Origin: Isurus oxyrinchus
Taxonomy: Eukaryota
DNA length: 64,000 bases
Direction of reading: 5' to 3'
Assembly (NCBI GenBank): GCA_026770705.1
Contig: JANJGN010000646.1
Location: 248,001 to 312,000, forward strand
Every line of letters starts with the position of its first letter. Position 1 is the first letter of the stretch. This document shows positions 15,433-62,549 of this stretch, piece by piece. A program made the translations under genes and the position numbers. The notes under the pieces were generated by a model that ran no database searches, was not told where the DNA came from, and saw only the letters and a list, made by a program, of their open reading frames with translations.

Positions 15433-15472
15433 CTTGGAGAAGTGACAGGAGGAAGTAAGATTTCCCGATCAT
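15433..15472 (-). CDS. Gene A leader exon, MIGKSYFLLSLLQ
   Basis: ATG at 15472, 40 nt, G|gtaata donor; paralogue of 62510-62549. Confidence 0.8.
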
Positions 15473-27023: not shown

Positions 27024-27977
27024 AACAACCACAACCACCTTCCTTTGTACTTGGTATGAATCCAACGAGTGGAGAGTTTTCCCTGTGACATGACATGGCA
27101 GATGATGTGTGCTTGGTGCTCCAAATCCACAAGGGAAAATTGGTCATGCTATCACAATAGTTTTGCAATTTGTATTTATTACAAGAAGCGTGCACTGAAT
27201 TCAGGATAATGAGATGACCACAACCTTTAGACATTTTAAAAATTGGATTAAGATACTTATTAACAAAATAAAAGATTTCAAGCACAGACATAATACCACA
27301 GTTAGTTACAATTAAAATAAATTCTCAAATTCCTAATTAACCTGACTCCCAGTTACAGAGCCCGTTTAAGGCAACAGTCCAAAATAAGATTTTAGATTAA
27401 AAACAAACCCAGCGAGTTAACACAGCACACACTTGACAGTGGAATTCTAAATGGATTTCTCCAACTTTATTTACTGAACATAACAGACTTATGCACAAAT
27501 GCCTGGAGGCTTCTTCAAGCCTGTTTCACACACTCCTGTTAGATCTTACATGGCCCCCAACATAGCCTTTCATTCTCCTTTATACATGTTTCTCTCTCTT
27601 TGATGTGTAAATTCTTTGGAACTGTACCTTTCCCATAATATAAACTTTCATGTTGCCAATATTGTCAATGAAGTTTGGGTAAAATTAAAAAAAAACTCCT
27701 TAGCTTTGCTATTTGGGCTTGTCCTAAACAGACCGACATCCCTTTGAAATCTAAACAACCCCTTCACACCTTACATGTTAACACAGCCTCCATGTGTTCT
27801 CATTAGCATTTCAAGTACATTTCTACATCTAGCTTCTTTTGATAATCTCAAACTTGCAGTCTACCTGTCTCCAGATGTAATTAAACCACACAGACAGACC
27901 CATCTACACTCACACTCATAAACCTTGTTTACAACAAACCAGGAGAATATTATGCAAATTATTATACTTTCGTACCA
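27024..27977 (-). mobile_element. LTR-like insertion within a LINE, related in reverse to about 9330-9865
   Basis: TG...CA ends flanked by tccc/accc; the LINE resumes on both sides; reverse-complement similarity to 9550-9865. Confidence 0.55.
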
Positions 27978-28268: not shown

Positions 28269-28517
28269 TCAGTTTTTCTGGAACCTGATCTGTGTGTATT
28301 CCGTGTCCTCGCTCCTGTGCACAGTCCTGTCACCGCCGGGCAGCTTTGAAAAGTTGATGTTGGCGTAGAGAAGCTCGTCGGTATTGTCGGGGTTCCCATG
28401 TCCAACATCGCCTCCCACTGGACCTTCAGAGAGATCCCGGGGAGCTGGGGTCTCCCCCTCACTAGTTGTGTCTCTGGTTGTGTTCCGGGGCTCAGTAATC
28501 AGCACGTTCTGTTTACC
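28269..28517 (-). CDS. Duplicate terminal exon (tail 2): ITIM-like LLYANI plus ITSM-like TEYTQI
   Basis: 249 nt, open, intact acceptor; ...DELLYANINFSKL...EDTEYTQIRFQKN*. Confidence 0.7.
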   Translation of the reverse strand, partial: GKQNVLITEPRNTTRDTTSEGETPAPRDLSEGPVGGDVGHGNPDNTDELLYANINFSKLPGGDRTVHRSEDTEYTQIRFQKN

Positions 28518-28702
28518 CTACAGAGAAATGGAAACAGAAGACATCCTCACATCATTTACTGGCACTGATAGGGTTAAATTATTGTGCAGCCTCGTTAGTG
28601 TCAGTCGTGTCTCAGTGGGTTTAAGCCTTTTTTTCACTCTCTTTCTCTGTCTCTCTTTCTCTCTCGCTTTCTCTCTCTCTTAATAATTTAATCTCTATCG
28701 CA

Positions 28703-31700
28703 CTCCAACAGTGCAGCACTCCCTCAGTACTGACCCTCTGACAGTGCATCACTCCCTCAATACTGACCCTCCGACAGTGCAGCACTCCCTCAGTACTGAC
28801 CCTCTGACAGTGCAGCACTCCCTCAATACTGACCCTCCGACAGTGCAGCTCTCCCTCAATACTGACCCTCTGACAGTGCAGCACTCCCTCAATACTGACC
28901 CTCCAACAGTGCAGCACTCCCTCAGTACTGACCCTCTGACAGTGCAGCACTCCCTCCGTACTGACCCTCTGACAGTGCAGCACTCCCTCAGTACTGACCC
29001 TCTGACAGTGCAGCACTCCCTCAGTACTGACCTTCTGACAGTGCAGCACTCCCTCAGTACTGACCCTCTGACAGTGCAGCACTCCCTCAATACTGACCCT
29101 CTGACAGTGCAGCACTCCCTCAGTACTGAACCTCCAACAGTGCTGCACTCCCTCAATACTGACCCTCTGACAGTGCAGCACTCCCTCAATACTGACCCTC
29201 TGACAGTGCAGCACTCCCTCAGTACTGACCCTCCGACAGTGCAGCACTCCCTCACTACTGACCCTCTGACAGTGCAGCACTCCCTCACTACTGAACTTCT
29301 GACAGTGCAGCACTCCCTCAGTACTGACCCTCTGACAGTGCAGCACTCCCTCAGTACTGACCCTCCGACAGTGCAGCACTCCCTCAATACTGACCCTCTG
29401 ATAGTGCAGCACTACCTCAATACTGACCCTCCAACAGTGCAGCACTCCCGGAATACTGACCCTCTGACAGTGCAGCACTCCCTCAATACTGACCCTCTGA
29501 CAGTGCAACACTCCCTCAGTACTGACACTCTGACAGTGCAACACTCCCTCAGTACTGACCCTCCAACAGTGCAGCACTCCCTCAATACTGATCCTCTGAC
29601 AGTGCAGCACTCCCTCACTACTGACCCGCTGACAGTGCAGTACTCCCTCAGTACTGACCCTCTGACAGTGCAGCACTCCCTCCGTACTGACCCTCTGACA
29701 GTGCAGCACTCCCTCTGTACTGACCTTCTGACAGTGCAGCACTCCCTCAGTACTGACCCTCTGACAGTGCAGCACTCCCTCAATACTGACCCTCTGACAG
29801 TGCAGCACTCCCTCAGTACTGACCCTCCAACAGTGCTGCACTCCCTCAATACTGACCCTCTGACAGTGCAGCACTCCCTCAATACTGACCCTCTGACAGT
29901 GCAGCACTCCCTCAGTACTGACCCTCCGACAGTGCAGCACTCCCTCACTACTGACCCTCTGACAGTGCAGCACTCCCTCAATACTGACCCTCCGACAGTG
30001 CAGCACTCCCTCAGTACTGACCCTCTGACAGTGCAGCACTCCCTCAGTACTGACCCTCTGACAGTGCAGCACTCCCTCAATACTGACCCTCTGACAGTGC
30101 AGCACTCCCTCAATACTGACCCTCCAACAGTGCAGCACTCCCGGAATACTGACCCTCTGACAGTGCAGCACTCCCTCAATACTGACCCTCTGACAGTGCA
30201 GCACTCCCTCAGTACTGACACTCTGACAATGCAACACTCCCTCAGTACTGACCCTCCAACAGTGCAGCACTCCCTCACTACTGACCCGCTGACAGTGCAG
30301 CACTCCCTCGCTACTGATCCGCTGACAGTGCAGTACTCCCTCAGTACTGACCCTCTGACAGTGCAGCACTCCCTCCGTACTGACCCTCTGACAGTGCAGC
30401 ACTCCCTCCGTACTGACCCTCTGACAGTGCAGCACTCCCTCAGTACTGACCCTCTGACAGTGCAGCACTCCCTCAGTACTGAACTTCTGACAGTGCAGCA
30501 TTCCCTCAGTACTGACCCTCTGACAGTGCAGCACTACCTCAATACTGACCCTCTGACAGTGCAGCACTCCCTCAGTACTGACCCTCCAACAGTGCTGCAC
30601 TCCCTCAATACTGACCCTCTGACAGTGCAGCACTCCCTCAATACTGACCCTCTGACAGTGCAGCACTCCCTCAGTACTGACCCTCCGACAGTGCAGCACT
30701 CCCTCACTACTGACTCTCTGACAGTGCAGCACTCCCTCACTACTGACCCTCTGACAGTGCAGCACTCCCTCAGTACTGACCCTCCGACAGTGCAGCACTC
30801 CCTCACTACTGACTCTCTGACAGTGCAGCACTCCCTCACTACTGAACCTCTGACAGTGCAGCACTCCCTCAGTACTGACCCTCTGACAGTGCAGCACTCC
30901 CTCAGTACTGACCCTCCGACAGTGCAGCACTCCCTCAATACTGACCCTCCAACAGTGCAGCATTCCCTCAGTACTGACCCTCTGACAGTGCAGCACTCCC
31001 TCAATACTGACCCTCTGACAGTGCAACACTCCCTCAGTACTGACACTCTGACAGTGCAACACTCCCTCAGTACTGACCCTCCAACAGTGCAGCACTCCCT
31101 CAATACTGACCCTCTGACAGTGCAGCACTCCCTCACTACTGACCCTCTGACAGTGCAGTACTCCCTCAGTACTGACCCTCTGACAGTGCAGCACTCCCTC
31201 TGTACTGACCCTCTGACAGTGCAGCACTCCCTCACTACTGACCCGCTGACAGTGCAGCACTCCCTCGCTACTGATCCGCTGACAGTGCAGTACTCCCTCA
31301 GTACTGACCCTCTGACAGTGCAGCACTCCCTCCGTACTGACCCTCTGACAGTGCAGCACTCCCTCCGTACTGACCCTCTGACAGTGCAGCACTCCCTCAG
31401 TACTGACCCTCTGACAGTGCAGCACTCCCTCAGTACTGAACTTCTGACAGTGCAGCATTCCCTCAGTACTGACCCTCTGACAGTGCAGCACTACCTCAAT
31501 ACTGACCCTCTGACAGTGCAGCACTCCCTCAGTACTGACCCTCCAACAGTGCTGCACTCCCTCAATACTGACCCTCTGACAGTGCAGCACTCCCTCAATA
31601 CTGACCCTCTGACAGTGCAGCACTCCCTCAGTACTGACCCTCCGACAGTGCAGCACTCCCTCACTACTGACTCTCTGACAGTGCAGCACTCCCTCACTAC

Positions 31701-32892
31701 TGAACCTCTGACAGTGCAGCACTCCCTCAGTACTGACCCTCTGACAGTGCAGCACTCCCTCAGTACTGACCCTCCGACAGTGCAGCACTCCCTCAATACT
31801 GACCCTCCAACAGTGCAGCATTCCCTCAGTACTGACCCTCTGACAGTGCAGCACTCCCTCAATACTGACCCTCTGACAGTGCAACACTCCCTCAGTACTG
31901 ACACTCTGACAGTGCAACACTCCCTCAGTACTGACCCTCCAACAGTGCAGCACTCCCTCAATACTGACCCTCTGACAGTGCAGCACTCCCTCACTACTGA
32001 CCCTCTGACAGTGCAGTACTCCCTCAGTACTGACCCTCTGACAGTGCAGCACTCCCTCTGTACTGACCCTCTGACAGTGCAGCACTCCCTCAGTACTGAC
32101 CTTCTGACAGTGCAGCACTCCCTCAGTACTGACCCTCTGACAGTGCAGCACTCCCTCAATACTGACCCTCTGACAGTGCAGCACTCCCTCAGTACTGACC
32201 CTCCAACAGTGCTGCACTCCCACAATACTGACCCTCTGACAGTGCAGCACTCCCTCAATACTGACCCTCTGACAATGCAGCACTCCCTCAGTACTGACCC
32301 TCCGACAGTGCAGCACTCCCTCACTACTGACCCTCTGACAGTGCAGCACTCCCTCACTACTGACCCTCTGACAGTGCAGCACTCCCTCAGTACTGACCCT
32401 CTGACAGTGCAGCACTCCCTCAATACTGATCATCTGACAGTGCAGCACTCCCTCACTACTGACCCGCTGACAGTGCAGCACTCCCTCACTACTCACCCTC
32501 TGACAGTGCAGCACTCCCTCAGTACTTACCCTCTGACAGTGCAGCACTCCCTCAATACTGATCATCTGACAGTGCAGCACTCCCTCACTACTGACCCGCT
32601 GACAGTGCAGTACTCCCTCAGTACTGACCCTCTGACAGTGCAGCACTCCCTCAATACTGACCCGCTGACAGTGCAGTACTCCCTCAGTACTGACCCTCTG
32701 ACAGTGCAGCACTCCCTCAATACTGACCCTCTGACAGTGCAGCACTCCCTCAGTACTGACCCTCTGACAGTGCAACACACCCTCAGTAATGACCCTCCGA
32801 CAGTGCAGCACTCCCTCAGTACTGACACTTCGACAGTGCAGCACTCCCTCACTACTGACCCTCTGACAGTGCAGCACTCCCTCACTACTGAC
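28703..32892. repeat. 33-bp minisatellite (ACAGTGCAGCACTCCCTCAGTACTGACCCTCTG), about 127 copies, intronic
   Basis: Directly visible. Short copies also occur at about 38190-38270, and in reverse at about 63366-63690 and 63915-64000. Confidence 0.97.
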
Positions 32893-33105
32893 ATCAGGTG
32901 CCTCGTCATTATTGTGTTCATGTTTAAGGTCAAAGAGCGAGTGATGGAGGGAGACAGAGCCTGGGAGCGAGAGACAGTGCTGACCACTGCGCCATTGCTG
33001 ACTTCACAGGGCGATATCTGTGTGTAACCCAGCTGAGAATCTGGTATACGTGTTGTCTACACACTGAGGTTGAAGCTTTGGTGTGAGTGTAAACAGCTCC
33101 TGTAC

Positions 33106-33187
33106 CTGGTGCTTCACAGAGAGTGGACTGGGGGTCAATACAATGTCACTGGTCCCTGAAACTCTCTCCTCCATCGCTGTCTTTCTC
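33106..33187 (-). CDS. Duplicate cytoplasmic exon 1 (tail 2)
   Basis: 82 nt, near-identical to 39271-39352 with intact splice sites; RKTAMEERVSGTSDIVLTPSPLSVKHQ. Confidence 0.65.
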
Positions 33188-33729
33188 CTGCAATAACACA
33201 ATATCACACTGTGGTTATCATATAGCAGAGAGTCAGTGCAGCACAGACACAGAGCCCACTGTAACCTTACACCAATGACTGGACTGTCTCTAGTTCCAAT
33301 AAGGGGTATCAGCGTGACATCACTATAATGGAAGTGTGACATGTGATCCAATCTTAGTTTGACATTTGCTTTGAGCAGAGCACACACTCACAGCTCTGAT
33401 ACCTTCAAGCTTTCTCCGTATGTATAACTGTTCTCGTGCCGAGTCTTGATAAACAAATCATTAACATTCTCACCCAATCCCTGTGAGCGATTGGTGCTTT
33501 GTTTCTTGTACAATAAATAAGCCTAAGGTATAATATCATTATAATAACACGCCATATCTTTGACCCCCCCTCCACCCCTGCTCTTCCCCCCATAGCCCTT
33601 CAAATGTTCCCCCTTCAAGTATTTATCCAATTCCCCTTTTGAAAGTTCCTACTGAATCTGCTTCCAGCGCCCTTTCAGGCAGCACCTTCCAGATCACAGC
33701 AACTGATTATTATTCATCTGGATAACAGG

Positions 33730-33956
33730 CATTGGAATCTGTCTTTATAAAGTCACAACATCAACAAAGGACGGTGTTGGTGGTGGAAGTGAATTCCAAT
33801 CGTTCCGTTACTTACCCAGGACCTGTCCGACTGCTCGCCTGGGGAGGAACTGCCCACACGCTCTGCTTGGGCTGAATGACCTCTTCCTGTGCTGCTCCCT
33901 CTGTGTATTTAATTAGAAAGAGCTGATGTGTCACTGTGAGACAAAATGAGGAAGTT
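33730..33956 (-). promoter_or_regulatory. Ectopic copy of the promoter/exon-1 module upstream of tail 2
   Basis: Near-identical to about 15838-16062; donor at 33816; GAGGAAGT at 33948-33955. Confidence 0.6.
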
Positions 33957-34079
33957 GGAACAAAGTGAGTGAACAGCACTTTGCTGTGCACTGTCAGTAA
34001 ACCCTGTGTCTGTATAAGAATATAAGAACAGAACAAGTAGGATCAGCTGGACACCCTGACATTTTCATTCCTTATATTC

Positions 34080-37791: not shown

Positions 37792-38040
37792 TCAGTTTCG
37801 CTTGAATCTGATCTGTGCGTATTCCGTCTCCTCTTCCCTGTGGACAGACCCATCACCACTGGGCACCCTGAAGACTTGGGGATTGGCGTAGAGAAGCTCA
37901 GCGGGATTGTCAGGGTTCCCATGTCCAGCACCACCTCCCACTGGACCTTCAGAGAGACCCCGGGGAACTGGGGTCTCCCCCTCGCTAGTTGTGTCTCTGG
38001 TTGTGTTCCGGGGCTCAGAAATCAGCACGTTCTGTTTACC
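37792..38040 (-). CDS. Gene B terminal exon (tail 1): degenerate ITIM LLYANP plus ITSM-like TEYAQI
   Basis: 249 nt from the tctgtag acceptor to TGA; ...ELLYANPQVF...EETEYAQIRFKRN*. Confidence 0.85.
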   Translation of the reverse strand, partial: GKQNVLISEPRNTTRDTTSEGETPVPRGLSEGPVGGGAGHGNPDNPAELLYANPQVFRVPSGDGSVHREEETEYAQIRFKRN

Positions 38041-41000
38041 CTACAGAGAAATGGAAACAGAAGACATCCTCACATCATTTACTGGCACTGATAGGGTTAA
38101 ATTATTGTGCAGCCTCATTAGTGTCAGTCGTGTCTCAGTTGGTTTTACTCTCTCTCTCATATCATAAAAAAGAAACCACCTATGACAGGGCAGCACTCCC
38201 TCAGTACTGACCCCCGACAGCGCAGCACTCCCTCAGGACTGACCCTCTGTCAGTCTCGCACTCCCTCGGTAATGTCTCTGGCGAGTGCCGGCTTGGATTC
38301 TGCACTCAGGTGCCTGACGTGAGGCTCATTAACAAGAACCTTGTAATCAGAGAGAGGATGAGAGGGAAGAGAAAGAGAGAAAGGGATAGAGATAGGGTGT
38401 TATTAATCTATTAATGTATGTAATGTAAGTGGAAATTGTCTTTTTAAACAGGGGTTTAGTCTGTGGTTGTGTCTGTGAGTGTTTTAATTGGATTAAAGCC
38501 AGCCAGTCCGGGTACTTTGATGTCAAGTAGTTTTGAGATGTAAACAAAGAGGTAAAGGGGTAATTTCCATTTTTAAACAGAGCATTCAATGTCTGGGAGT
38601 GAAATCTTAAACGAATCAATGTTTATATTACTAATAAAATTGATACGATGAAGGGTGGAGTTCAAAGGTCCTGATGATTCAATGAGAATTTACATTCAAA
38701 GAGAAGCATTGGGTATAACTTGAGCAGTTTTGTGTGTGCAGAGCAGACGCTTGTAACATCAAAGCAGCTGTAAGCCTACACCTGTCTGCAAAGGAACCAA
38801 AGTGAAAGGAACCTCATTTGGAATTTGTGAGGTGAAAATGCTTTGCCTGGAATCTGCTTAAAGTCTATGGGTTGTCTTAGAGGAGATTAGTTTGAGAATT
38901 TGTTAAAAAGTTATGATAATACTAGTTTGTAGCCATGTGCATATGTTTAACTTGTGTTAATTAATAAATGTCTCATGTAGTTTGATATAAAACCATCTCG
39001 AGAACTGGTGTTCTTATTCCTGAATTTAGAGCTGCATCTCAAACATTCCACTGGGAAATATAGGTTATGACAGTTGTTTAAAGTTTCCCTCTGGGATTTT
39101 AAACAACAGCCTTTACCAGTTGTTGTGTCATAACAGAGAGACTGCATGATACTGAACCATTGCTGACTCCACAGGTACAAATCAGTGGGTAACTGGGCTG
39201 GGAATCTGGGACACGTGTTGTCTACACACTGAGATTGAAGCTTTGGAGTGAGTGTAAACAGCTCCTGTACCTGGTGCTTCACAGAGAGTGGACTGGGGGT
39301 CAATGCAATGTCTCTGGTCCCTGAAACTCTCTCCTCCATCGCTGTCTTTCTCCTGCAATAACACAATATCACACTGTGGTTATCATATAGCAGAGAATCA
39401 GTGCAGCACAGACACAGAGCCCACTGTAACCTTACACCAACAACTGGGACTGTCTCTTTAAATCACTTCTGCACAAAGCACAGAATCAAGAAGCTTGACA
39501 CCATCCAGGACAAAGCAGCCCGATTGATCTACACCCCATACACCACATTAAACATTCACTCCCTCCACCATGAACACACAGTGGCAGCAGTGTGTGTACC
39601 ATCTACAAGATGCACTGCAGCAAATCAGCAAGGCTCCTTCGACAGCTCCTTCCAAACCCACGACCTCTACCATCTAGAAGGACAAGGGCAGCAGACACAT
39701 GGGAACACCACCACCCGGAAGTTCCCCTCCAAGTCACTCACCATCCTGACTTGGAAATATATCACCGTTCCTTCACTGTCGCTGGGTTAACATCCTGGAA
39801 CTCTCTCTCTAACAGCACTGTGGGTGTACCAACACCACATGGACTGCAGCGGGTCAAGAAGGCAGCTCACCACCACCTTCTCAATGGGCAATTAGAGATG
39901 GGCAATTTAATAACGGCCTCACCATTGACAGTCACATTCGATTAAAGAATTTAAAATCTCACAGCTCAGGAGGAAGCCAGTCAGCCCATCGTGCCTGTGC
40001 TGGCCCTTTGTAAAAACTGTCCAATTAGTCCTAAACAAATGTTTATATTAAAATCAAGTTAAATCTTCAGACTTACTTTCTCACACAGATGAAGATGAAG
40101 ATTCCAGCCAGGAAAACACTCAACATGATCCCAGCCGTGAACAATCCTACTGTCCATTTACTGGAGTCTCTACCTGTAAAAACAGCCATTAATTACTGCA
40201 CTACAGGTTTACAATGATGCTCCGATGTATCTCGAGAAGCGATACACTCACTCAGTGTTTAAATACTCATTCTCGGGCAATGCTGACATTTATTGTCCAT
40301 CCCTAGTTTCCCCTTGAGAAGGTGGTGGGGAGTCTTCCTCCTGAACCACTGGTTTGTCCCAAACTGGGAGACCAGTTCAGAGGGCAGGTAAGAGTTAACC
40401 ATGTTGGTGTCTGAGACTGGAGTCACATATACACCCAGACCTGTTAAAATGGACAGGTTTCCCTCCCTTAAGATAATTAGTGACCCATATTATATATGTA
40501 ATTTCTATATATATGTATCAACTAACCTCCCTAAAATAATCAATTATCACCTCAATTTCATGCTGTTGTTTGTGGAATCTTGCTGTGCACAAATCAGCTG
40601 TTGCGTTTCCTACATGATGACAGTGAGCTCACTTTGAAACTGCTTCACTGGTTATCGAGCGTTTTGGGAATTCCTAAGTATTTTATCAACGCAAGTCTTA
40701 TTTTTCGATTTAATCCATGTAACATTTATATATAATATTTATCAATGTGATCCCTACAGCATAAATTTATAATATTTATCAATATAATCTATGTAACATT
40801 TATATATAATTTTTATCCATTTAATCTCTGTAATATTTATATATAATGTTTCTCGATTTAATCCATGTAACATTTATATATAATATTGCCCAATGTAATA
40901 TATGTAACATTTATATATATTTATCCATTTAATCTATGTAACATTTATATATAATATTTCTCAATGTAATCTATGTAACATTTATATATAATATTTCTCA

Positions 41001-44000
41001 ATGTAATCTATGTAATATTTATATATAATATTTAGTCGTTTGGGAGGAGAACCTGAGTATTGCTGAGAAAGGACATTTTGTCAAAGCTTTCTGTCTTGCA
41101 CCCAATGAAGCAGCTTATCTGGGGGAGAGGGTTCCAGATTTCCACTCCCCTTTGTGTGAAGAAGTGCTTCCTGACATCACCCCCTGAATGGCCTGGCTCC
41201 AATTTGACCAAGTGTTGCCATTGTCACATGAGATCAGGTGATTCAAAGCTTGGTCAAAGGGGTAAGTTCTAAAGAGCATTTTAGAGGAGGTAGAGAGAGA
41301 GGTGGAGAGGTTGAGGGAGGAAATTCTCGAGTTTAGGGATCAATCCAGCTGAGTGGAGATCGATCCTGAGCGAGTCTCTCACCTTTGACCCACACATACA
41401 CCTTGAACATGGCTTCCCCGTGTGGGTTTTGAACCGAGCAGGATGCAATCACTCCCCCCTCATCCTGGGGTCTCATCAGGGTGAGGGAACCAGTCACCAG
41501 ATGCCCATCTCTGACCTGCCACGACACAAAACCTCCGTGTGTTTGGTTACCACTGATGTTGGCACTGGGCAGGTGCCAGGTGAGGTCTCCGGGTGGGTTG
41601 GAGGTGGCCACACAGATGCAGGTGACCCCCTCTGATCTCCGAGTGCACTCCGACTGCTGGGAAATCTCCGGCTTATCTGAGGAGGGAAGGATAACAATAA
41701 GACAACGTCATAGCAAAGTTAGAGCGTAAGATAGAATCTTAACACTGAAACACTCATTCCTGCCTTTGTTACCTCTGCACTCAACTATCCCAACACTCTC
41801 CTGCCCGACCTCCCATCTTCCACTCTCCGTAAACATCAGCTCATCCCAAACTCTGCTGTCCCCATGTCCTAACTCACACCGAGTCCCGTTCACACATCAC
41901 TCCCTGTTGGTCACTGAGGTACACTGGCTCCCGGTCCGACAATGCCACAATTTTAAAATTCACATTGTTTCAAATCCCTCCTTACCCCCTCCCTATCTCT
42001 GATACCTCCTTCAGACCCTTCAACCCTCCCTATCTCTGTAACCTCCTCCAGCCCCTTCAACCCTCCCTATCTCTGTAACCTCCTCCAGCCCCTACAACCC
42101 TCCCTATCTCAGTAACCTCCTCCAGCCCCTTCAACCCTCCCTATCTCTGTAAACTCCTCCAGAACCTTCAACCCTCCCTATCTCTGTAACCTCCTCCAGC
42201 CCCTTCAACCCTCCCTATCTCTGTAACCTCATCCAGCCCTTACAACCCTCCCTATCTCTGTAACCTCCTCCAGCCCCTACAACCTTCCTTATCTCTGTAA
42301 CCTCATCCAGCCGATTCAACCGTCCCTATCTCTGTAACCTCCTCCAGCCCCTTCAACCTTCCTTATCTCTGTAAACTCCTCCAGCCTCTACAACCCTCCG
42401 AGATCTCTGTGCACCTCCAATTCCAGCTTCTTGACATTCCCCCGATTCCTATCGCTCCACCATTGGCAGCCGTGCCTTCAGCTGCCTGGATCCTAACCTC
42501 TGGAATTCCCTCCCTCATTTCTCACCTCCTTCGGACAAAATCTGACCACCACCAAAAGCATCTTCCCTTCACCCCCATCCCGTTGGCATTCCACAGGGAT
42601 CATTCCCTCCAGGACACCCTGGTCCACTCCTCCATCACCCCTAGCACCTCAACCCTCTCCGATGACATCTTCCCATGTATTTGCAGAAAGTGCAACACCT
42701 GCCCCTTTACTTCCTCCCCCCTCACTGTCCAATGACCCAAACACTCCTTCCAGGTGAAGCAGCGCTTCATGTACACTTCCTTCAATTTAATCTACTGCAT
42801 TCGCTGCTCCCAATGTGGTCTCCTCTACATTGGAGACACCAAACACAGACTGGGTGATCGCTCTGATGAACACCTTCGGTCTGTCCACAAGCATGACCCA
42901 GACCTCCCTGTCGCTTGCCATTTTAACACTCCACCCTGCTCTCATGCCCACATGTCCGTCCTTGGCCTGCTGCATTGTTCCAGTGAAGCCCAACACAAAC
43001 TGGAGGAACAACACCTCATCTTCCGACCTGGCACTTTACAGCCTTCCCGACTGAATATTGAATTCAACAATTTCAGATCATGAACTCTCTCCTCGATCTT
43101 CACTGCTTTTTGAACCCTTTTTTAATGTATTCATTTTAATTGTTTTTTTTGTTAACTGTTTTCCACTTATTTTTATTATTATTATTTGAAATTCATTTCC
43201 ATTTTTATTGATTGTTTTATCCGCAGATTTTAGTCTATTTTCGATCTTTATTCCCTCCACCGTCCCCTCCCCCCTGCCACACCCCCACGAGGGCCATCTG
43301 TCTCTTTCCAGAGTGCTTACCCTGGTCCGCCCATTATCACACTCTGCTTAATGTCACCATTAGCACCTCCTTTATCCAATACCACCACTGTTAACAACCC
43401 TTTGACCTTTTGTTTATGACATTTTTCACAATCTCTCCATTGCCTCCACCTATCGCTGGTTTTCTATCCAGCTCCACCTGTCCCATCGCCCCCCCTTAGA
43501 CAGGATATATTTCACCACATGTCTACTTCCCTTTAGCTCTGAAGAGGAGTCTTACGGACTCCAAACGCTAACCCTGTCTTTCTCTCCACAGATGCTGCCA
43601 GATGCTCAGAATCAGCTGGATGGACAGAAAGACCAATGAGTGGCTTAGATCAAGAGGAGACGTTCAGCAATTAAAAGGGTTGTTCAGGACAGTTAGAGAG
43701 AGAAAGGTCGTCAAGTATGGAGATTGGAAACGAAGACCTGACAGCCTTGTCCTCACAACCATTGAAGGAGAAACTGAGAGCAAAAACAGAAAGGGAGAGG
43801 AAAAATTGGGTGTGTGGATAACGTGGACTGAGCGAGGATTGAAGAAAACTGGATTAAAAACAACACGATCCCAATGGCTCCACGGAGACCACGGAGACAA
43901 CAAACAAACAAATGTATCTCCACACTCACATTCCACAGTGATGGTTATGAACCCCTCCACTGCTCCATGTTCATTCTCTGCCACACACTGATAATCTCCA

Positions 44001-47000
44001 GTGTCCCTGGATGTAACGTGAGGAATCACCAACCACAGCTCATTGTTGGAACTTGTTCTGTTCATTGGGACATTAAGATGTCGCCACGTCAGGTTAGAAG
44101 CTGGGAAGCTCTCGACAGAGCAGATTATCACTGCAGAATTCCCCGCAATTATATTGATCGATGAAGCGTTAATCATATCAAGAGAAGTAATTGAGAGATT
44201 CTGTGGTGCATCTAAAAATATATAAAGATTTTAATGTGAGCAAACACAGTGCACAGCAAAACTTCCTGTATCATCTCGCTGTAACTGATGCCTGTGTGCA
44301 TTTCTAGGCACCTTCTCTCAAGATAAGTTCCTATGTCACATTTACAATGGGCACTGCCTATGTAAACTGTCACACTGCAGGAGCATTCTCCCACCAGAGA
44401 CGCTGCCCATCCAGATTTAAAGAAACTGCCTTTCACATCCTCAGGATGTCCCCAAGGGCTTGACAGGCAATGAATTATATTTGATCGATGGAGCACTGAG
44501 GGGTAAATCTACAATTCTCTGTTAAGGAGGTTGCTCCATCCAATTCAGGGTCTTGTTGATCCGGAGTTTACCTTCCTTCAACACAGAATCGGAGCTGACA
44601 CCGAGACTCCAGTGCAGCACTGAGTGNNNNNNNNNNNNNNNNNNNNNNNNNNNNNNNNNNNNNNNNNNNNNNNNNNNNNNNNNNNNNNNNNNNNNNNNNN
44701 NNNNNNNNNNNNNNNNNNNNNNNNNNNNNNNNNNNNNNNNNNNNNNNNNNNNNNNNNNNNNNNNNNNNNNNNNNNNNNNNNNNNNNNNNNNNNNNNNNNN
44801 NNNNNNNNNNNNNNNNNNNNNNNNNNNNNNNNNNNNNNNNNNNNNNNNNNNNNNNNNNNNNNNNNNNNNNNNNNNNNNATGTGCGTGCTTACGTGTGTGT
44901 GTGTGTGTGTGTGTGCGTGTGTGTGTGTGCGTGTGTGTGTTGTGTGTGTGCGCGTGTGCGTGTGAATGTGCGTGCTTACATGTGTGTGTGTGTCTGTTGG
45001 TGTGTGTCTGGTCTGTGTAACCTGTAAACCTAACCCTTCCACACTGATGGTCACGAACACCCCCCACTACCAACAAATTTATCTCAGTAAGGAACATGGC
45101 ACTGCCAACCTCGTCAATACCATCTTCTAAACGGGGGATTGGGTAGGAATCTGGTTTTATTGCTGCATTAACCTTTCTGTAATCTATGCAGAATCTGGTT
45201 GGAAATGAAATACCTGCTCCTTTTTACCTCCCTCCCTACGATGGTATCGTTTTAACATATTGATGTGTCACAGCCGATTCTTTATTCTACAATCTGGGGT
45301 GTCTATCAAATAATTTACTTGACCAACCCTCCTAATTACCTTGTGGAGACCACTGAACCGCGCTTTCAGAGGCTCCCCCTGCCAAGGCAATGATACTAAC
45401 ACGTCATCCCCCTGGTTGTGATGTTCGGGTCACAGCTTGCCTGTCTGCCCCATTCCTTCATTTCTGTTTGAGAAACTATAAGATGTTCTTGTGCCACTTT
45501 GGAGGCTCCCATGAGCCGTTCCTGAAACATGGACACATCATCTGAAATAGAGGATTCATCCCTCTGTCCGGAATATCTTTCTTTGATGTATTTCAAACAG
45601 CCTCTTATCTCGTGTCCATAAGTTATTCCAAAAAGACTAAAACCTGCCGATTCAGTTGGTGAATCTCATGTGGGAAATACAAGAAATCCAGTCCTTTGTC
45701 CCAGTCATGGGGAGATCATGACAATAGCTTCAATCATTGTTTTGAGGGTTTGTTGGTCCCTCTCTAAAGATCCCTGTGTCTATGGATGATATGCTGTGGA
45801 CTTTAACTGTTTTATACCCAAATTACTCATTATGTTCGGAAAATTTTAAGACATAGAGATGGAACCTTGATCTGACTGGATCTCCAGCGGTAATCCATAA
45901 TGGGTAAAAAATTGGGTTAACTTCCCTATTACTACTTTAGCTGTAATTGTTCCTAAAGGGATGGTCTCTGGAAATCGAGTTGTCATATCCATCATAGTGA
46001 GGCCATACTGGAGTCCAGCTTTCATTTTCGATAATGGTCTAATACAGTCCACTAATGCTCGTATCCAATGGTAACGGACAATTAACTCACTGGAGGAGGG
46101 GAATCCACAAATATCCCCATTCTCAATGAAGGGGGAGCCCAGCACATCAGGGCAAAAGATAAGGCTGAAGCATTTGCTACAACAATTATCCATTTCTGTC
46201 TGGCGTAAAAATAAATCAGGAAATGGTGCTCAACCAGGGCTTACAAAAGAAATTAGGGATAGTATTAGATCCAGAGAGGAGACATAAAATTGCCAGGGGA
46301 AGCAGCAATGCTGAGGATTGGGAGCAGTTTAGAATTCAGCAAAAGTGGACAAAAAGATTGATCAAGAAGGGGAAAATGGAACATGGGAGTAAACTTGCAG
46401 GGAACGTAAAAACCGACTGTAAAAGCTTCTATAAATATGTGAAGAGAGAAAGATTAGCAGTGACCGATGTAGGTTCCTTGCAGTCAGAAATGGGGGAAAT
46501 TCTAATGAGAAACAAAGAAATGGCAGAAGAACTGAACATATATTTTGGTTCTGTCTTCACAAAAGAGGACACAAATAATTTCCCAGGAATGTTAGGGAAC
46601 CAAGTGTCTAGTGAGAGGGAGGAATTGAAGATAATCAGGATTAGTTTTAAAAAATGGAGCTGGAGAAATTAATGGGTTAAAGGTTGAACAGTCCCCAGGG
46701 CCTGAAAATCTACATCCCAGAGACTAACGGAAGTGACCCTGGAAATATTGGAAGCACTGGTGGTCATCCTCCAAAATTCTATAGGCTCTGGAGCAGTTCC
46801 TATAGATTGGAGGGTGGCAATTGTAACCCCACTATTTAAAATAGAAGGGAGAGAAAAAAACTGGGAATTACAGACCAGTTAGTCTAACATGGGGAAAACG
46901 CTAGAGCCTATTATATAAGGTGTGCTAACGGAACGCTTGGAAAGCATTAATGGGATTAGACAAAGTCAGCATGGGTTAATGAAAGGAAAACCATGCTTAA

Positions 47001-50000
47001 CTAATCTATTGGAGATTTTGAGGATGTAACTTGTGGAATAGATAAGGGATAACCAGTGGATGTGGTGTTTTTAGATTTCAAGAAGGCTTTTGATAAGGTC
47101 CCACATAAGAGGCTAGTGGGCAACATTAAAGCCCATGGGATTGGGGGTAATTTACTGGCATGGATTGAGAATTGGTCGACAGACAGGAAACAGAGGGTCA
47201 GAATAAATTAGTCTTTATCTGAGTGGCAGGCGGTGACCAGTGGTGTACCACAGCGATCCGTGCTTGGGACCTAACTATTCACGATATATTTAAATGACTT
47301 GGGTGAAGGAGCCAAGTGCAATATTTCCAGGTTTTCTGATGACACAACGCTGGGTAAGGGTGTGAGCTGTGAGGAGGATGCAAAGAGGCTTCAAGGCGAT
47401 TTAGACAAGTTGTGTGTGTGGGCAAACACATGGCAGATGATGTGGATGAATGTGACATTGTAGGCTTTGGTGTGAAAAACAGAAAGGCAGAGTATTATTT
47501 AAATGGTGATATAATGGGAAATGTGGATGTATAAAGGGATCTGGGTGTCCTTGTGCACTAGCCAATGAAAGTAAACAGGCAGGTGCAGCAAGTAATTCGG
47601 AAGGCAAATGGTATGTTGTCCTTCATTGCAAGAGGATTTGTGTTCAGGAGTAGGGATGTCTTACTGCAGTTATATAAGGTCTTGGTGAGACTGCACATGG
47701 GGTACTACGTGCCGTTTTGGTCTCCCTCCCTAAAAAAGGATAGACTTGCCGTCGAGAGAGCGCAGAGAAGGTTCTCTAGGCTGATACCAGGGGCGGCAGG
47801 ACTGTCGTATGAGGAGAATTGGTACGACTGGGTCTGTATTCACTAGAGTTTAGAAGAATGAGAGGAGACCTGAATAAACGTAAGAAATTCTAACAGAGAT
47901 AGACAGACTGGATGGAGGGAGGATGCATCCCTTGGTTGGGGAGTCTAAAACCAAGGGCGACAATCTCAGGATACAGGGCAGGCCATTTTGGACTGAGATA
48001 GGGAAACATTTCTTCACTGAGAGGGTGGTCAATCTGTGGAATTCTCCATCACAGAGGCTGTGGAGGCCGGGTCACTGAGTGTATTCAAGAAAGAAACTGA
48101 TAAATATTTTGATATTAGGGGCATCAAAGGGTACGGAGAGAAAGCGGGAATAAGGCTTTGAGATAGAGGGTCAGCCTTGATCATATTGAATGGCGGAGAA
48201 GGCTTGAAGGGCTGAATGTCCTAATCGTGCTCCTAGTTTCTATGTACCTAGGTATCTATAGAACTATCTCTCTCCGTGTTCTATTCTCATGTGACCTTGA
48301 GTAATTAATGATAAATACTATCTATTTACATTGCTAATATTAAACTTTTATACTACAACTCCCCCAAAATCTTTGACATCAATGAAGACAATATTTATAT
48401 TATCCTATATTGTCTTTTAAGTTCAACCTTGGCCCCCTCTGCCCTATCAAGTAGGCATAAACAATCCCAAGGCTCAATACAGGAAGAGCTCTCCCTGGTC
48501 AATATCACTAATAAAAAAGGACCTGTTTTGTCTTCAACCCAGTGATGTTTGTGGGATCTTGCTCTGCACATTGTATCCTATTACAGCTAATATAGAATCA
48601 AGGGTTTCAGTACTTACCTTGTACAGTTAGTACAAGGGTCCGCTCCGATGAAACAGATGGATATCTCACTCTGCAGCTGAGAGTGTGTCCGTGGTGTTTG
48701 AGTGATGGGATCAGGGTCAGAACAGAAGTATAGGTCAGAGTGACATCATGCTGAGTTACAGTGTTTGAGACTGATCCAGGTACGTCAGTGGGAGTGTCCC
48801 AGGTTAAGACAGGCGCTGCTGTTCCATTGCACGTTGTGTTGAAGGTGCAGCTTACATCCACACGCTTTCCTGCAATAATTTCAGCAGGGAATATCGTGGG
48901 TTTATCTGTGAAATCTAACAGACAGAGAATGGATCCTTTTAGAGAAATATAACGTGAAGCATCAGTTCAAATAGAAATCACAGTCCCACAAGAGAAAGCA
49001 CTTTTACAAGGATGATATCAGAACTGAGAGATTACAACGATCAGGAGAGACTTTCCTATTTTCAGACTTAGTGGAGTTTCTGTCACTCAGATGAATTCAC
49101 TTCCACTTTGAGACAATTGAATTGACAATCCCGGGTCAGGGTGGGGGATCAGCTCACAGTTCCTGACACACTGGCTTGTTACTTTCTCCGAAATCTGCCA
49201 GATTTAAATTCTATCCAGTTCCCAGCAGGAGAGAATCCATTTGAACCAATCACTGAACCGGCATTTAAAGCAGATGATCAGGTTATTGATCACATTGCTG
49301 TTTCTGGGAGCTTCCTGTGCACAAATTGGCTGCTGTGTTTCCTATATTACAACAAGGGCTACATTTCAAGAATTATTTCAATGGTTGTGAATCCATTTGC
49401 GATGTCCAGAGGTGGTGAAAGGCGCTATAGAAATGCAAATCTTTCTTTTGTTGATATGTAAGAATTTTAAACAGGATTAGGGAGATTGATGTAAGTGGAT
49501 AACCTGATAACATTGATGGACACAGTCAATACATTTAATCACTGATATTAAAGTGAGTATTAGAGGTTGTTTTAGGACTGAACTGGAAGCTATCACCAGG
49601 TTATTGAGAATCAGACAGCGTGTTATAATTAGCTGTGTTTTGTGTTAATATGTAAACGTCACAGTTTGTGTTATTTCCCATTGAGTGTTGAATGTGAATT
49701 GTTGAGTAATTATAACACAGCACTTACCAGAAACATGAAGCTGGGTTACAGGGTAATAGTTATGGCTCGGACCATTGTCAAATTCTATTCTGAAAAAATA
49801 AGGTCCTGCATCTTCCCGTCTGATGTTGTTTATAATCAGGGAACAGTCGCCATCTTTCAGGTCTCCAGACAGCCGGGTCCGATGGTGGAACCGTGGTAAC
49901 TCGTGACTGTGATCCTTGGAGTGAAAGGCAATGGGAGCCCAGGGAATCTGTTTCTCATTATTAAACCAGACTCCACCTCGCGGTTGGTTTTCCGGACACA

Positions 50001-53000
50001 ATGGATAACTGTAATGACATGGAATCTGTACACACGAACCTTCCTGTGCTGTCACCTCTCGTGGACTGTCATCTTTCCACTCTTGTGAGGGTTTATCTGG
50101 GGAGAGAAATCTCAATATTTAACTCTGGATGGTTTGTGGATCCACTAGACTCAAAATTTACTGATGAGGCTGAATTGGGGGGATGGTCAATACTGAGGAG
50201 AATGGCAACAAATTATTTTGGCAGGAAGAATAGAAAAACAGGATATTATTTAAATGGAGACAGGCTGCAGAATGCAGTACAGAGGGATCTGGGTGTCCTT
50301 GTACATGAATCACAGAAAGTCAGCATTCAGGAACACCACGGAATGAGGAAGGCAAGTGGAATGTTGGCCTTTATTGCAAAGGGATGGAGTATAAAAGGAG
50401 GGAAGTCTTGCAGCAGCTGCACAGGGCGTTGGTGAGATTGTATCAGGAGCAGTGTGTACAGTTCTGGTCTCCTTACTTAGGGAGGGATAGAGTTGCATTG
50501 GAGGCAGTTCAGAGGAGGTTCACTGGGCTGATTCCTGGGATTAAAGGGTTTGTCCTGTGAGGAAATGTTGAGCAGGTTGGGCCTGTATCCATTGGAGTTT
50601 AGAAGAATGAGGGGTGACCTTATTGAAACATATCCGATTCCGAGGGGGCTTGACAGGGTGGATGCTGGGAGGATGTTTCCCCCTCGTGGGGGAATCTAGA
50701 ACCAGGGAGCACAGTTTCGGAATGAGGGCTCTCCCATCTAAGACTAAGATGAGGAGGAATTTCCTCTCTCAGAGGGGCGCTAGCCTGTGGAATTCTCTTC
50801 CCCAGAGAGCAGTGGAGGCTGGGCCATTGAATAGACTCAAGGCTGAGTGAGGCAGGTTTTTGATCGACAAGGGAGTCAAGGGTTTGGGGGACAGGCAGGA
50901 AAATGGAGTTAAGGCCACAACCAGATCAGTGAGAGCAGGCTCGAGGGGCCGAATGGCCTGCTCCTGTCCCTATTTCTTATGTTCCTACATTCTTACCTTC
51001 TTAAAATATTAAAGCTGCAGAATAAACATGCAAGTGACTGACCCGCTCGACCCACCTTCCATCTGGGGCTGGAGGAGGTTACACAGATAGGGAGGTTTGT
51101 GGGGGCTGGAGGAGGTAACAGAGATAGGGAGGGCTGTAGATACTGGAGGACATTACGCAGATAGGGAGGGTGGTAGGACCTGGAGGAGGTTGCAGAGATA
51201 GGGAGGGCTATAGGGATTTGAGGAGTTTATGGAGATGGGGAACGTGTAGGGACTGGAGGAGGCTGCAAGGGCAGAGAGGGTTTTAGGGGCAGGAGGAGTT
51301 TACAGGGATAGGAAGAGTTGTAGGGGCTGGACGGATTGCAGAGGTAGGGAGGGTTGGAAAGGCTGGTGGAGGTTTCAGAGGTAGGGAAGGTTGCAGGGAC
51401 TGCAGGAGTTTACAGAGATGGGGGAGTTTTTGGGGCAGGATGGGGTTACAGAGATAGGGAGGGTTGTAGGGGCAGGACGAGGTTACATAGATATGGAGTG
51501 TGGCTGGGGCTGAGGGAGGCTACAGAGATAGGGAGGGTTATAATGGCTGGAGGAGTTACAGAGATGAAGGAAACTCTTAGGGACTGGAGGAGGTTACAGA
51601 GATAGGGAGGGTTGTAGTGGGCTGGAGGAGGTTACAGAAATATGAAGGGTTGTAAGAGATGGACCAGCTTACAGAGATAGGGAGAGGTATTCGGTCTGGA
51701 GGAGTTTGCAGAGATAGTGGAGGTTGTTAGGACTGGAGGAGGCTACAAATATCGCGAGGGTTATCGGGGCTTGAGGAGGTTAAAGAGATAGGGAGGGGTG
51801 TTGGGTCCGGAGGAGTTTGCAGTGATAGGAATGGTTTTCGGGATTGGAAGAGAGTACTGAGATAGGAGGGTTGTAGGGACTGGAGGAGTCTCCTGAGATA
51901 GGGAGGGTTGTAGGGACTGGAGGAGGCTCCTGAGATAGGGAGGGTTGTAGGGACTGGAGGAGGCTCCTGAGATAGAGAGGGTTGTAGGGACTGGAGGAGG
52001 CTCCTGCGATAGGGAATGTTGCCGTGGATGAAGATAAAGGAGGAGATTACTGTAATAGGGAGGAAAAATATTCAAAAATTTGGACATTGAGACTTTGCTT
52101 GACCAGGAGCCAGTCTCGGTCATCGAGCAGAGCGGGTGATAAGGGAACGGGACTTGGTGTGAGTAAGGACGTGGTCAGCAGTTTTGGATGGCCTCAAGTT
52201 TATGGAGTGTAGAGCATGTGTTGGAACAGTCGAGTCTGGAGGTAATGAAGGCGTGGATGAGGGTTTCAGCAGCAGATGAGCTGAGACAGGGTGAAGTCGT
52301 ACGACGTTATGGAGGTGGAAATAGACGGTGTTAGTGAGGGCGCAGATATGAGGCCGGAAGCTCATCTCAGGATCAAATGGGACAACAAAGCTGTGAACAG
52401 ATTGGCTTCAATCTCAGAGAGCTGCCAGGGAGAGGAATGGAATTGGTAGCGAGGGAACAGAGTTTGGAGCGGGGAATGAAGACAATGGCTTCAGTCTTTC
52501 CAATATTTAATTGGAGGGAATTTCTGCCCATCCAGTACTGGATGTCGGATAAGCAGCCTGATAATTTAGCAGCAGTGGAGGAGTCGAGAGAGGTGGTGGT
52601 GAGATAGAGCTGGGGATCCTCAGTGGACAGGTGAAAACTAACACTGTTCAGATGATGCTGCAAAGCCATTGCAAGTGATTCTCTGGCTACGATGAGATGG
52701 ATAAGAATGGAGCCAGGGGAGAGCAGTCCCACCCAGCTGGACGACAGTGGACAGGTGTTGGAGGAGGATGGTGTGGTCGAGCGTGTCAAAGGCTGCAGAC
52801 AGATCGAGAAGGACGAGGAGGGAAAGTTGACCTTTGTCACAGTCACACAGGATGCCATTTGTGACCTTGATAAGAGCTGTTTCAGCACAGTGGCTGGGGT
52901 GGGAACCTGATTGGAGGGATTCAAACATGGAGTTCTGGGAAAGATGGAACCGGATTCGGGAGATGGAAACACGTTCAAGGACTTTGGAGGGGAAAGAGAG

Positions 53001-62000: not shown

Positions 62001-62549
62001 GACACTGAACAGCCTGTCTATTCTAGGAGCTGCTGTGTTGTCTTCATGGGAAATTCTGACAAAATCAGCAAAAGACACAAAATTTCAGGGCATTGTTATC
62101 CGAGTCCCAGCATCAGGATAGACCTCATCCCCCAGTTGGTATTCCTGATTCTCTATTAAGCGGATCGCTCCCCTGTCACTGGCTGAACAACACTGGCTCC
62201 CAGTCCAGCAATGACTCAAATTTCAAATTCTCATCATCGAGTTCTTACCCCACCATCCCCCCTCTACACTCTCTATCTGTGTAACCTCCTCCAACCCTAA
62301 AACCCTCTGTGATCTCTGCTCTCCTCCAATTCTGCTGTCAGACAGGGAGTCAGTGTATATCAGTGAGCACAGGGGTGATGGGTGAATGGGACTTGGTGTG
62401 AGTTTGTACACTGGCTCACTGCTGAATCGGTTCCCAATCACACTCAATAAGAATGATCTTTTACAAAGACTATTAGCCATAAAACTGTCCGAGCTGACGA
62501 CGTTATTACCTTCGAGAAGTGACAGGAGGAAGTAGGATTTCCCGATCAT
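37792..62549 (-). CDS. Gene B: Siglec/MAG-like Ig receptor, spliced CDS of 10 coding exons, 818 aa (leader-V-V-V-C2-C2-Ig-TM-tail)
   Basis: Exons 62549-62510, 57230-56853, 53661-53293, 50096-49728, 48914-48618, 44211-43930, 41676-41383, 40173-40077, 39352-39271, 38040-37792. All have AG/GT boundaries and compatible phases. Lengths sum to 2457 nt = 819 codons including the stop. Confidence 0.85.
39271..39352 (-). CDS. Gene B cytoplasmic exon 1 (tail 1)
   Basis: 82 nt, phase 2 to 0; RKTAMEERVSGTRDIALTPSPLSVKHQ. Confidence 0.75.
40077..40173 (-). CDS. Gene B transmembrane exon
   Basis: 97 nt, ttttacag/gtaagt; GRDSSKWTVGLFTAGIMLSVFLAGIFIFICVRK, an uncharged hydrophobic helix. Not in the ORF track. 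Confidence 0.85.
40710..41035. repeat. AT-rich tandem repeat of about 38 bp
   Basis: Repeated AATCTATGTAACATTTATATATAATATTT units. Confidence 0.85.
41383..41676 (-). CDS. Gene B membrane-proximal Ig exon resembling MAG (Siglec-4) domain 5
   Basis: 294 nt, phase 1-1; YKPEISQQSECTRRSEGVTCICVATSNPPGDLTWHLPSAN...CSVQNPHG. The S-x-C...C-x-C...SNP pattern recalls MAG D5 (recognised from memory, not by search). Confidence 0.8.
42540..43602 (+). mobile_element. Penelope-like element, GIY-YIG endonuclease 3' fragment
   Basis: NLIYCIRCSQCGLLYIGDTKHRLGDR..EH...PVACHFN (ORF 42754-43083). Confidence 0.85.
43930..44211 (-). CDS. Gene B C2-set Ig exon
   Basis: 282 nt, phase 1-1; APQNLSI...IICSVESFPASNLTW...DTGDYQCVAENEHG. 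Confidence 0.9.
48618..48914 (-). CDS. Gene B C2-set exon (Siglec domain-2 type)
   Basis: 297 nt, phase 1-1; DFTDKPTIFP...VSCTFNTTCNGTAAPVLTW...HHGHTLSCRV, carrying the extra Cys typical of Siglec D2. Confidence 0.9.
49728..50096 (-). CDS. Gene B V-set exon 3 (Arg intact)
   Basis: 369 nt, phase 1-1; SCVQIPCHYSYPLC...YFFRIEF. Confidence 0.9.
52040..53060 (-). mobile_element. L2-type LINE RT fragment; copy at about 55600-56620
   Basis: ETALIKVTN...SLLVLLDLSAAFDTLDH and WMGRNSLQLNIGKTE motifs. Confidence 0.8.
53293..53661 (-). CDS. Gene B V-set exon 2 (Arg intact)
   Basis: 369 nt, phase 1-1; SCVQIPCHYSYPSC...GDCSLIINNIRREDAGPYFFRIEF. Confidence 0.9.
56853..57230 (-). CDS. Gene B V-set exon 1 (distal; essential Arg replaced by Thr)
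   Basis: 378 nt, phase 1-1, cccag/gtaagt boundaries. Siglec V hallmarks SCVQIPC and GDCSL are present, but the F strand reads YFFTIKF. Confidence 0.9.
62510..62549 (-). CDS. Gene B leader (signal peptide) exon, MIGKSYFLLSLLE
   Basis: ATG at 62549, 40 nt, phase-1 donor G|gtaata. Joins the V exon to give MIGKSYFLLSLLEVGLS-QEW. Confidence 0.8.

What the first reader, a model, noticed from the sequence alone, without database searches (positions are those of the whole stretch)
28269..33956. Possible receptor-less cytosolic ITIM/ITSM mini-gene
Seen: a copy of the promoter/exon-1 module with an intact GAGGAAGT site and an intact donor at 33816 sits 630 bp upstream of the tail-2 exons. Splicing 33816>33187>28517 gives an in-frame ATG in strong Kozak context (GCG ATG G). 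The product is a 105-aa ORF, MEERVSG...LLYANI...TEYTQIRFQKN, with no signal peptide or TM. Inference: a deletion fused promoter to tail, possibly creating a soluble SHP-1/SHP-2/SAP-binding decoy or adaptor.
Basis: partly seen in the sequence, partly recalled or inferred. Interest (0 to 1): 0.7.

Follow-up and report, generated by a model that had tools for sequence, protein, structure and literature searches.

The report
Headless shark Siglec tail gene
A deletion, likely recent, joined the start of one shark immune-receptor (Siglec-like) gene directly to its signalling-tail exons, leaving an intact 105-residue reading frame with no membrane anchor that is most likely an idle by-product of a large, constantly rearranging gene cluster, although a soluble decoy role is untested.

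Summary
A deletion (junction 33731-33730, 2-bp microhomology) joins the non-coding exon 1 of a shark Siglec-like gene to its two tail exons. Splice sites and a 105-aa ORF with ITIM (LLYANI) and ITSM (TEYTQI) are intact; no signal peptide, TM or Cys. A near-identical fused copy lies on contig C926.

Function is unsupported. The start Met is inherited (ATG in 121 of 134 tail contexts). The copy has only 6 private changes, so intactness shows no selection (p=0.6). Fragments are the norm: 17 of 26 gene units on two contigs are incomplete, and 7 of 82 tail groups lack a TM. The fused junction was not testable in the RNA held. One white-shark model (212 aa) starts at the same Met without TM; context unseen.

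Best reading: young birth-and-death remnant, probably transcribable, likely inert without a membrane anchor. The scan noted a similar deletion remnant elsewhere in this genome.

Better-supported side result: at least 25 of 75 receptors carry 2-3 tandem tail cassettes spliced in frame, and the exon-1 module doubles as a coding tail exon in another subfamily.

The parts
33948..33955 (+). ETS-like octamer GAGGAAGT in the exon-1 module (binding untested; ETS label recalled)
   Evidence: kept in 49 of 54 exon-1-position copies, 0 of 7 tail-position copies
33816..33960 (-). Non-coding exon-1 module; start site not measured; it also carries internal acceptors opening at 33933 and 33900; donor GT at 33815-33814
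   Evidence: acceptor use in family RNA contigs
33730..33815 (-). Stub of intron 1 (86 nt); deletion junction at 33731-33730 with TG microhomology
33188..33729 (-). 3' part of the intron that normally follows the TM exon (holds a short repeat fragment near 33566-33704)
   Evidence: 96-97% to 38 paralogues; TM exon lies upstream of it in intact genes
33106..33187 (-). Tail-2A exon (82 nt, phase 2 to phase 0); ATG at 33174-33172 is the internal Met of KRKTAMEER
28708..32892 (.). 33-bp minisatellite, about 127 copies, in the tail intron; shorter in the C926 copy, present in paralogues
28269..28517 (-). Tail-2B terminal exon, 82 codons plus stop
28356..28373 (-). ITIM-consensus motif LLYANI (Ala at pY+1)
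   Evidence: consensus from PMC8631942 passages
28287..28304 (-). ITSM-consensus motif TEYTQI
   Evidence: consensus from PMC8631942 passages
27466..27471 (-). First AATAAA downstream of the stop (candidate polyadenylation signal)
37792..63147 (-). Upstream neighbour, gene A: exon 1, signal exon, three V, C2, two further Ig exons, TM 40173-40077, tail-1A 39352-39271, tail-1B 38040-37792 (LLYANP, TEYAQI); the exons found are open; possible read-through donor of exons to tail-2

Best explanation
A deletion removed the signal, Ig and TM exons from one copy of a tandem Siglec-like receptor gene and left exon 1 joined to the two tail exons, giving a likely young gene remnant that would make, at most, an unanchored 105-residue peptide that is probably inert. 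Shown: the junction, the intact splice sites and ORF, the second copy on C926, the scarcity of private changes, and the abundance of other broken units. Inferred: repair by end joining at a 2-bp microhomology; transcription from the retained exon-1 region; escape from nonsense-mediated decay because the stop is in the last exon; poor tyrosine phosphorylation and fast turnover because the peptide has no TM, no Cys, no N-terminal Gly and starts after the KRK juxtamembrane stretch, whereas ITIM/ITSM docking needs prior phosphorylation, normally by membrane-bound Src-family kinases (recalled knowledge).
For: Junction: left side matches intron 1 of paralogues, right side matches the pre-tail intron, sharing only TG. 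Rarity: 2 of 40 scored matches span the fused form, against 255 exact tail-A acceptors and 609 exact exon-1 donors in G000; in the first 2.82 Mb of C52, 0 of 49 tail-A sites have a same-strand exon-1 donor within 9 kb. Youth: 6 private sites in 2169 nt compared with 32-100 paralogous copies per segment, 0 of 331 coding against 6 of 1838 non-coding, Fisher p=0.60; the C926 copy differs at 6 of 2455 compared positions of the fused unit. Background: 17 of 26 assignable gene units on C646 and C926 are incomplete by exon layout (hand count), and 7 of 82 tail groups lack a TM upstream. The Met is inherited and is replaced by Thr or other residues in 13 of 134 contexts and in several shark homologues. 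No anchor.
Against: Promoter region, splice sites, ORF, both tyrosine motifs and a poly(A) signal are all intact, and the exon-1 region is 99-100% identical to intact paralogues, so expression is plausible. The fusion exists in two contigs with different flanks, so it has been copied or inherited at least once. A white-shark RefSeq model, XP_041037072.1 (P0021, 212 aa), begins at the same Met with two tail cassettes and no TM; its genomic context could not be seen. The selection test has almost no power.
Confidence: 0.68

Rival explanations
1. The fused copy is a functional mini-gene: a leukocyte-expressed cytosolic ITIM/ITSM peptide that, once phosphorylated, sequesters or activates SHP-1/SHP-2 or SAP-type SH2 proteins.
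For: Intact exon 1, ETS-like octamer, splice sites and ORF; ITIM with Ala at pY+1, the SHP1-favouring residue (PMC8631942 passages); two copies; a TM-less white-shark model from the same Met.
Against: Every intact feature is inherited from a 97-100% identical receptor tail; no membrane-targeting signal; no exon-1-to-tail fusion among 82 other tail groups; no 45-144-aa relative of the tail in the protein collection (a word-limited search); the white-shark model has two cassettes, so it is not the same event, and may be a split annotation.
Confidence: 0.11
2. Tail-2 serves as an alternative cytoplasmic end for the upstream receptor gene A by read-through: TM (40077, phase 2) to tail-2A, or tail-1A (39271, phase 0) to tail-2B, both in frame, replacing the non-consensus LLYANP of tail-1 by a consensus ITIM.
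For: Phases match. Read-through into the module from upstream sequence is seen in family RNA contigs (joint 35513>33933 in X2; loose ends at 33935-33937) and in a basking-shark model (P0013). Extra terminal tail-B exons follow complete tails at L076 and L094.
Against: Tail-1B here is the type without the internal GT donor used by tandem tails. Eight AATAAA/ATTAAA hexamers lie between tail-1B and the module. If the module is included after TM or tail-1A, tail-2A is read out of frame and stops.
Confidence: 0.15
3. The junction is an assembly artefact in a highly repetitive cluster.
For: Hundreds of 97-99% identical paralogues.
Against: The same junction stands in two contigs that differ by substitutions, minisatellite length and flanking gene order; a 2-bp overlap is not what a repeat collapse produces.
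Confidence: 0.03

Closest known systems
CD33-related Siglecs / MAG-like receptors of sharks (RefSeq models in Carcharodon, Cetorhinus, Mustelus, Rhincodon, Hemiscyllium)
   Same: Tail exons are 56-90% identical to their ITIM/ITSM tails; neighbouring V exons hit V-set and Ig_CD22 and Siglec-5, CD33, Siglec-7 best in the PDB (E 2e-15 to 6e-14).
   Different: The fused copy has no signal peptide, V-set, C2 or TM exon, so it cannot be a receptor or lectin.
Deletion-born hybrids in immune-receptor clusters: SIGLEC14-SIGLEC5 fusion (PMC6288428, passages) and LILRB5-3 (PMC11130398, abstract and outline)
   Same: A deletion in a tandem cluster joins the 5' part of one gene to the ITIM tail exons; LILRB5-3 is transcribed and translated.
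   Different: Those keep an ectodomain and TM and join homologous segments; here the whole ectodomain and TM are gone and the junction has 2-bp microhomology. Parentage from one gene or two neighbours cannot be told.
XP_041037072.1 (LOC121274003, white shark, 212 aa; P0021)
   Same: Starts at the same Met, tail sequence only, no TM.
   Different: Two tail cassettes; automated model; first exon and genomic context not seen, so it may be a split annotation.
Intracellular-domain-only receptor isoforms from alternative starts (e.g. ALK-ATI, tr-kit; recalled, no call)
   Same: Cytosolic product from the 3' exons of a receptor gene.
   Different: Those carry a catalytic kinase domain and come from an intact gene; this is a motif-only disordered tail from a deleted copy.

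Membership tests
Siglec receptor (fused copy itself) | N-terminal V-set domain with the sialic-acid-binding Arg | tested here: not met
   No V exon between 33816 and 33187
Siglec receptor (fused copy itself) | Signal peptide and single TM segment | tested here: not met
   No signal or TM exon; best 19-residue hydropathy 0.13
Siglec receptor (fused copy itself) | Cytoplasmic ITIM plus ITIM-like/ITSM motif | tested here: met
   LLYANI at 72-77, TEYTQI at 95-100 (consensus). The stricter ITIM ending in L/V (PMC7226832 passage) is not matched.
Siglec-like family (parent cluster) | V-set domain with paired N-terminal Cys and YFFR strand, followed by C2-set domains, TM and tyrosine motifs | tested here: met
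   the Arg is present in V2 and V3 of gene A and replaced in V1
Siglec-like family (parent cluster) | Sialic-acid binding | not testable with these tools
   Needs a binding assay
Functional cytosolic SH2-binding adaptor or decoy | Own transcript (exon 1 spliced to tail) | tested here: inconclusive
   No such joint in X1-X3, but no run was shown to carry the fused DNA
Functional cytosolic SH2-binding adaptor or decoy | Purifying selection on the ORF | tested here: inconclusive
   0 of 331 coding against 6 of 1838 non-coding private sites, p=0.60
Functional cytosolic SH2-binding adaptor or decoy | Tyrosine phosphorylation and SHP-1/SHP-2/SAP binding | not testable with these tools
   Needs cells and phosphoprotein
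Deletion-born cluster remnant or hybrid | Junction between two non-adjacent parts of the canonical gene, each matching paralogues | tested here: met

The most novel reading that the evidence does not exclude
Lamniform shark Siglec clusters repeatedly shed the ectodomain and TM to make promoter-driven, cytosolic ITIM/ITSM peptides (this 105-aa one; the 212-aa white-shark model) that titrate SHP-1/SHP-2/SAP, as one end of a modular system in which the same tail cassette is multiplied one to three times on receptors or released from the membrane altogether.
Probability: 0.1. Interest if true: 0.72.

Novelty: new variant of a known kind. Interest (0 to 1): 0.34.

Why it matters
If inert, it is a clear base-resolution example of gene death in a Siglec-like cluster of several hundred copies, in a lineage where such an expansion was not found described in the searches made (listings only; a 2020 paper reports only four regular Siglecs in bony fish, PMC7226832 abstract and passages). 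If functional, it would be a host-encoded, receptor-less ITIM/ITSM modulator, for which searches found no described example. The side results matter more surely: receptors with one to three in-frame ITIM/ITSM cassettes give a natural series for testing how motif number sets inhibitory strength, and one exon serving as 5' UTR in some genes and as coding tail in others is a neat case of exon reuse.

Tried and rejected
RNA test of the fused junction: contigs of X1, X2, X3 (one sample, RNA by guess) and X14 on 33040-34020 show no joint at all (44 loose-end rows hidden); X1, X2, X11, X13 on 32900-37400 show no 33816>33187 joint among 15 rows shown, 90 hidden. No listed contig bridges the DNA junction at 33730 either; those ending there continue into normal intron 1. 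No run held half of the stretch's words. So none of these runs is shown to carry the fusion and the absence says nothing. Contigs cannot show a start site.

Copy-specific coding marker: none exists; tail-2A is identical to 16 of 38 paralogues and no coding site is private, so family RNA cannot be assigned to this copy.

Tail-1B to tail-2A splicing as the source of the tail-B>tail-A RNA junction: rejected, tail-1B lacks the GT in both the window and C926; tandem-tail paralogues explain it.

C926 as a simple second haplotype: not resolved; it shares about 25 kb of order with the window but not the wider gene order.

The 'second GAGGAAGT' at 15449 and 62526 as extra ETS sites: they lie inside the signal-peptide coding exon.

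Search for short tail-only proteins (45-144 aa): no candidate; weak, word-limited.

Frames omitted base 33816 and are superseded. A search for the source of one mixed loose end found nothing. No structure or complex prediction was run: the peptide is motif-only and binding needs phosphotyrosine. Literature searches gave no paper on a TM-less ITIM mini-gene or on tandem tail cassettes in shark Siglecs (listings and abstract starts only; subscription journals are largely missing; no supplements were read).
Full report
Setting. The window lies at G000:C646:248001-312000 in a 4.98-Gb genome. It holds minus-strand genes of a Siglec-like family: a V exon hits Pfam V-set and Ig_CD22 and Siglec-5, CD33 and Siglec-7 best among solved structures, and the tail exon finds 19 shark proteins, the closest from white and basking shark. 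The family is very large: 609 exact copies of the exon-1 donor motif and 255 of the tail-A acceptor motif, with 0 matches for the reversed controls.

The normal gene. In six intact paralogues the module is followed about 430 nt later by a signal exon (MIGKSYFLLSLLQ) and then a V exon; C2 and further Ig exons, a TM exon ending in phase 2, tail-A and tail-B follow. RefSeq models of other sharks have the same layout and one splices the module to the signal exon. Family RNA contigs show TM>tail-A and tail-A>tail-B joins as loose ends at 33187 and 33105. Modules of intact genes sit about 4 kb behind the previous gene's tail-B, as the one at 33.9 kb does.

The observation. Confirmed as described: octamer at 33948-33955, donor after 33816, acceptor at 33187, donor after 33106, acceptor at 28517, ORF of 105 aa from the ATG at 33174, with LLYANI and TEYTQI matching the ITIM and ITSM consensus given in PMC8631942 (passages). 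The product has no hydrophobic segment, no Cys and no N-terminal Gly.

The junction. The first 86 nt of intron 1 are joined to the intron that normally follows the TM exon; the two parents share only TG at 33731-33730. Of 40 scored matches to the 861-nt fused stretch, 2 span it whole (the window and C926:14767) and 38 match only the part behind the junction. The C926 copy differs at 6 of 2455 compared positions within the fused unit, none coding, has a shorter minisatellite, and shares gene order with the window for about 25 kb only. The fusion is therefore real; whether C926 is an allele or a duplicate is open. Only the best 40 candidates are scored per search and only the first 100 of 255 tail-A sites are listed, so other fusions elsewhere are not excluded.

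Is the ORF special? The ATG is the tail's own Met, present in 121 of 134 distinct tail-A contexts held. Tail-2A is identical to 16 of 38 paralogues. Against 32-100 paralogous copies per segment the fused unit has 6 private sites in 2169 nt, 0 of 331 coding and 6 of 1838 non-coding (Fisher p=0.60). The copy is too young for intactness to mean selection, and the test cannot exclude it either.

Background of breakage. By exon layout (BLAST probes, hand count, units running off an edge left out) 9 of 15 units on 294 kb of C646 and 8 of 11 on C926 are incomplete. The first 100 listed tail-A sites form 82 tail groups: 75 have a TM exon upstream, 7 do not, and none has a same-strand exon 1 directly upstream. 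Six of the seven look like copies of one orphan. So TM-less tails are common debris, and a promoter-driven one is rare.

For expression and function. The exon-1 region is 99-100% identical to that of intact genes, and the octamer is kept in 49 of 54 exon-1-position copies but in 0 of 7 tail-position copies, which share ancestry. There is no upstream ATG and the stop is in the last exon. A transcript and some peptide are therefore plausible (inference). The white-shark model XP_041037072.1 starts at the same Met, has two tail cassettes and no TM; had a TM exon been in the model, its Met would be expected to give an earlier start (inference), but the context could not be seen. RNA contigs held here could not test the junction (see Tried and rejected).

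Mechanism. ITIM and ITSM bind SHP-1, SHP-2 or SAP only once phosphorylated (PMC8631942 passages), which for receptors is done by membrane-bound Src-family kinases after clustering (recalled). A small, acidic, hydrophilic peptide without anchor, from one or two copies among some 250 receptor tails, would be poorly phosphorylated and outnumbered (inference). I put 0.68 on an inert remnant, 0.15 on use as an alternative tail of gene A by read-through (in frame from TM or tail-1A, out of frame if the module is included), 0.11 on a working decoy, 0.03 on artefact.

Side results. First, at least 25 of the 75 TM-bearing tail groups carry two or three tandem tail-A/tail-B cassettes. All 21 internal tail-B ends printed have a GT right after the ITSM (one more was not printed); RNA contigs of X1 and X3 (one sample) join such a tail-B to tail-A in frame, and four RefSeq models of white and basking shark contain the same join. 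Second, in the TM3 subfamily (window 20.7-18.3 kb) the same module is a coding cytoplasmic exon between the TM exon and two tyrosine-motif exons, with both joins seen as loose ends at 33900 and 33816. Neither was found described in the searches (listings only).

Comparison and verdict. It is not a Siglec receptor (V-set, signal and TM absent) but derives from one. It resembles deletion hybrids such as SIGLEC14-SIGLEC5 (PMC6288428, passages) and LILRB5-3 (PMC11130398, abstract and outline), differing in loss of ectodomain and TM. PMC8455134 (passages) mentions Siglecs once and does not describe this cluster in those passages. Verdict: new variant of a known kind, real but most likely a by-product; interest 0.34, part of it owed to the tandem-tail and exon-reuse results.

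Noticed in passing
L059-L076, L097, L139, L141, L146, L150, L153, L161, L167, L171 (G000 C52, C71, C121): Receptors with two or three tandem tail cassettes (at least 25 of 75 TM-bearing groups); internal tail-B exons carry a GT after the ITSM and are spliced in frame to the next tail-A in RNA contigs X1 and X3 and in white- and basking-shark models (P0001-P0004). ITIM/ITSM number varies by cassette duplication.
   Followed up: yes
window 20680-18267 (-): TM3-type gene end: the exon-1 module (19720-19636) acts as a coding cytoplasmic exon between the TM exon and two tail exons with YEN, LYANC and VYGNL motifs; joins supported by RNA loose ends; these copies lack the ETS-like octamer. This unit lacks its 5' exons.
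   Followed up: partly
L004, L006, L008, L011, L016, L019, L020: Tandem arrays of a 1.76-kb unit holding exon 1 plus the signal exon (2 to 5 units seen per 10 kb); an X2 contig splices a signal exon into the next module.
   Followed up: partly
L152, L160, L162, L168, L169, L174: Orphan tail-B/tail-A groups with no TM within 5.6 kb upstream; in three of them an exon-1 module lies about 1 kb upstream on the opposite strand (head to head).
   Followed up: partly
L184: Ig exons followed by tail-A with no TM exon detected between them.
   Followed up: no
G000:C926 about 31900-39400: Unit with exon 1, signal exon, a V remnant, TM and tail but no complete Ig exon; its tail-B is frameshifted.
   Followed up: partly
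window 9242-8875 (-): First V exon of gene B is frameshifted (368 nt); the second V (6644-6276) is open with the Arg.
   Followed up: partly
window 57230-49728 (-): Gene A has three tandem V exons; the first has Thr in place of the Siglec Arg (YFFTIK), the other two keep it.
   Followed up: partly
window 38040-37792 (-): Tail-1B has a non-consensus first motif (LLYANP); two tail-B types (…NP and …NI) coexist across the cluster.
   Followed up: partly
P0013 (basking shark model), X2 joint 35513>33933: Read-through splicing from one gene's tail or from intergenic repeat sequence into the next gene's exon-1 module.
   Followed up: no
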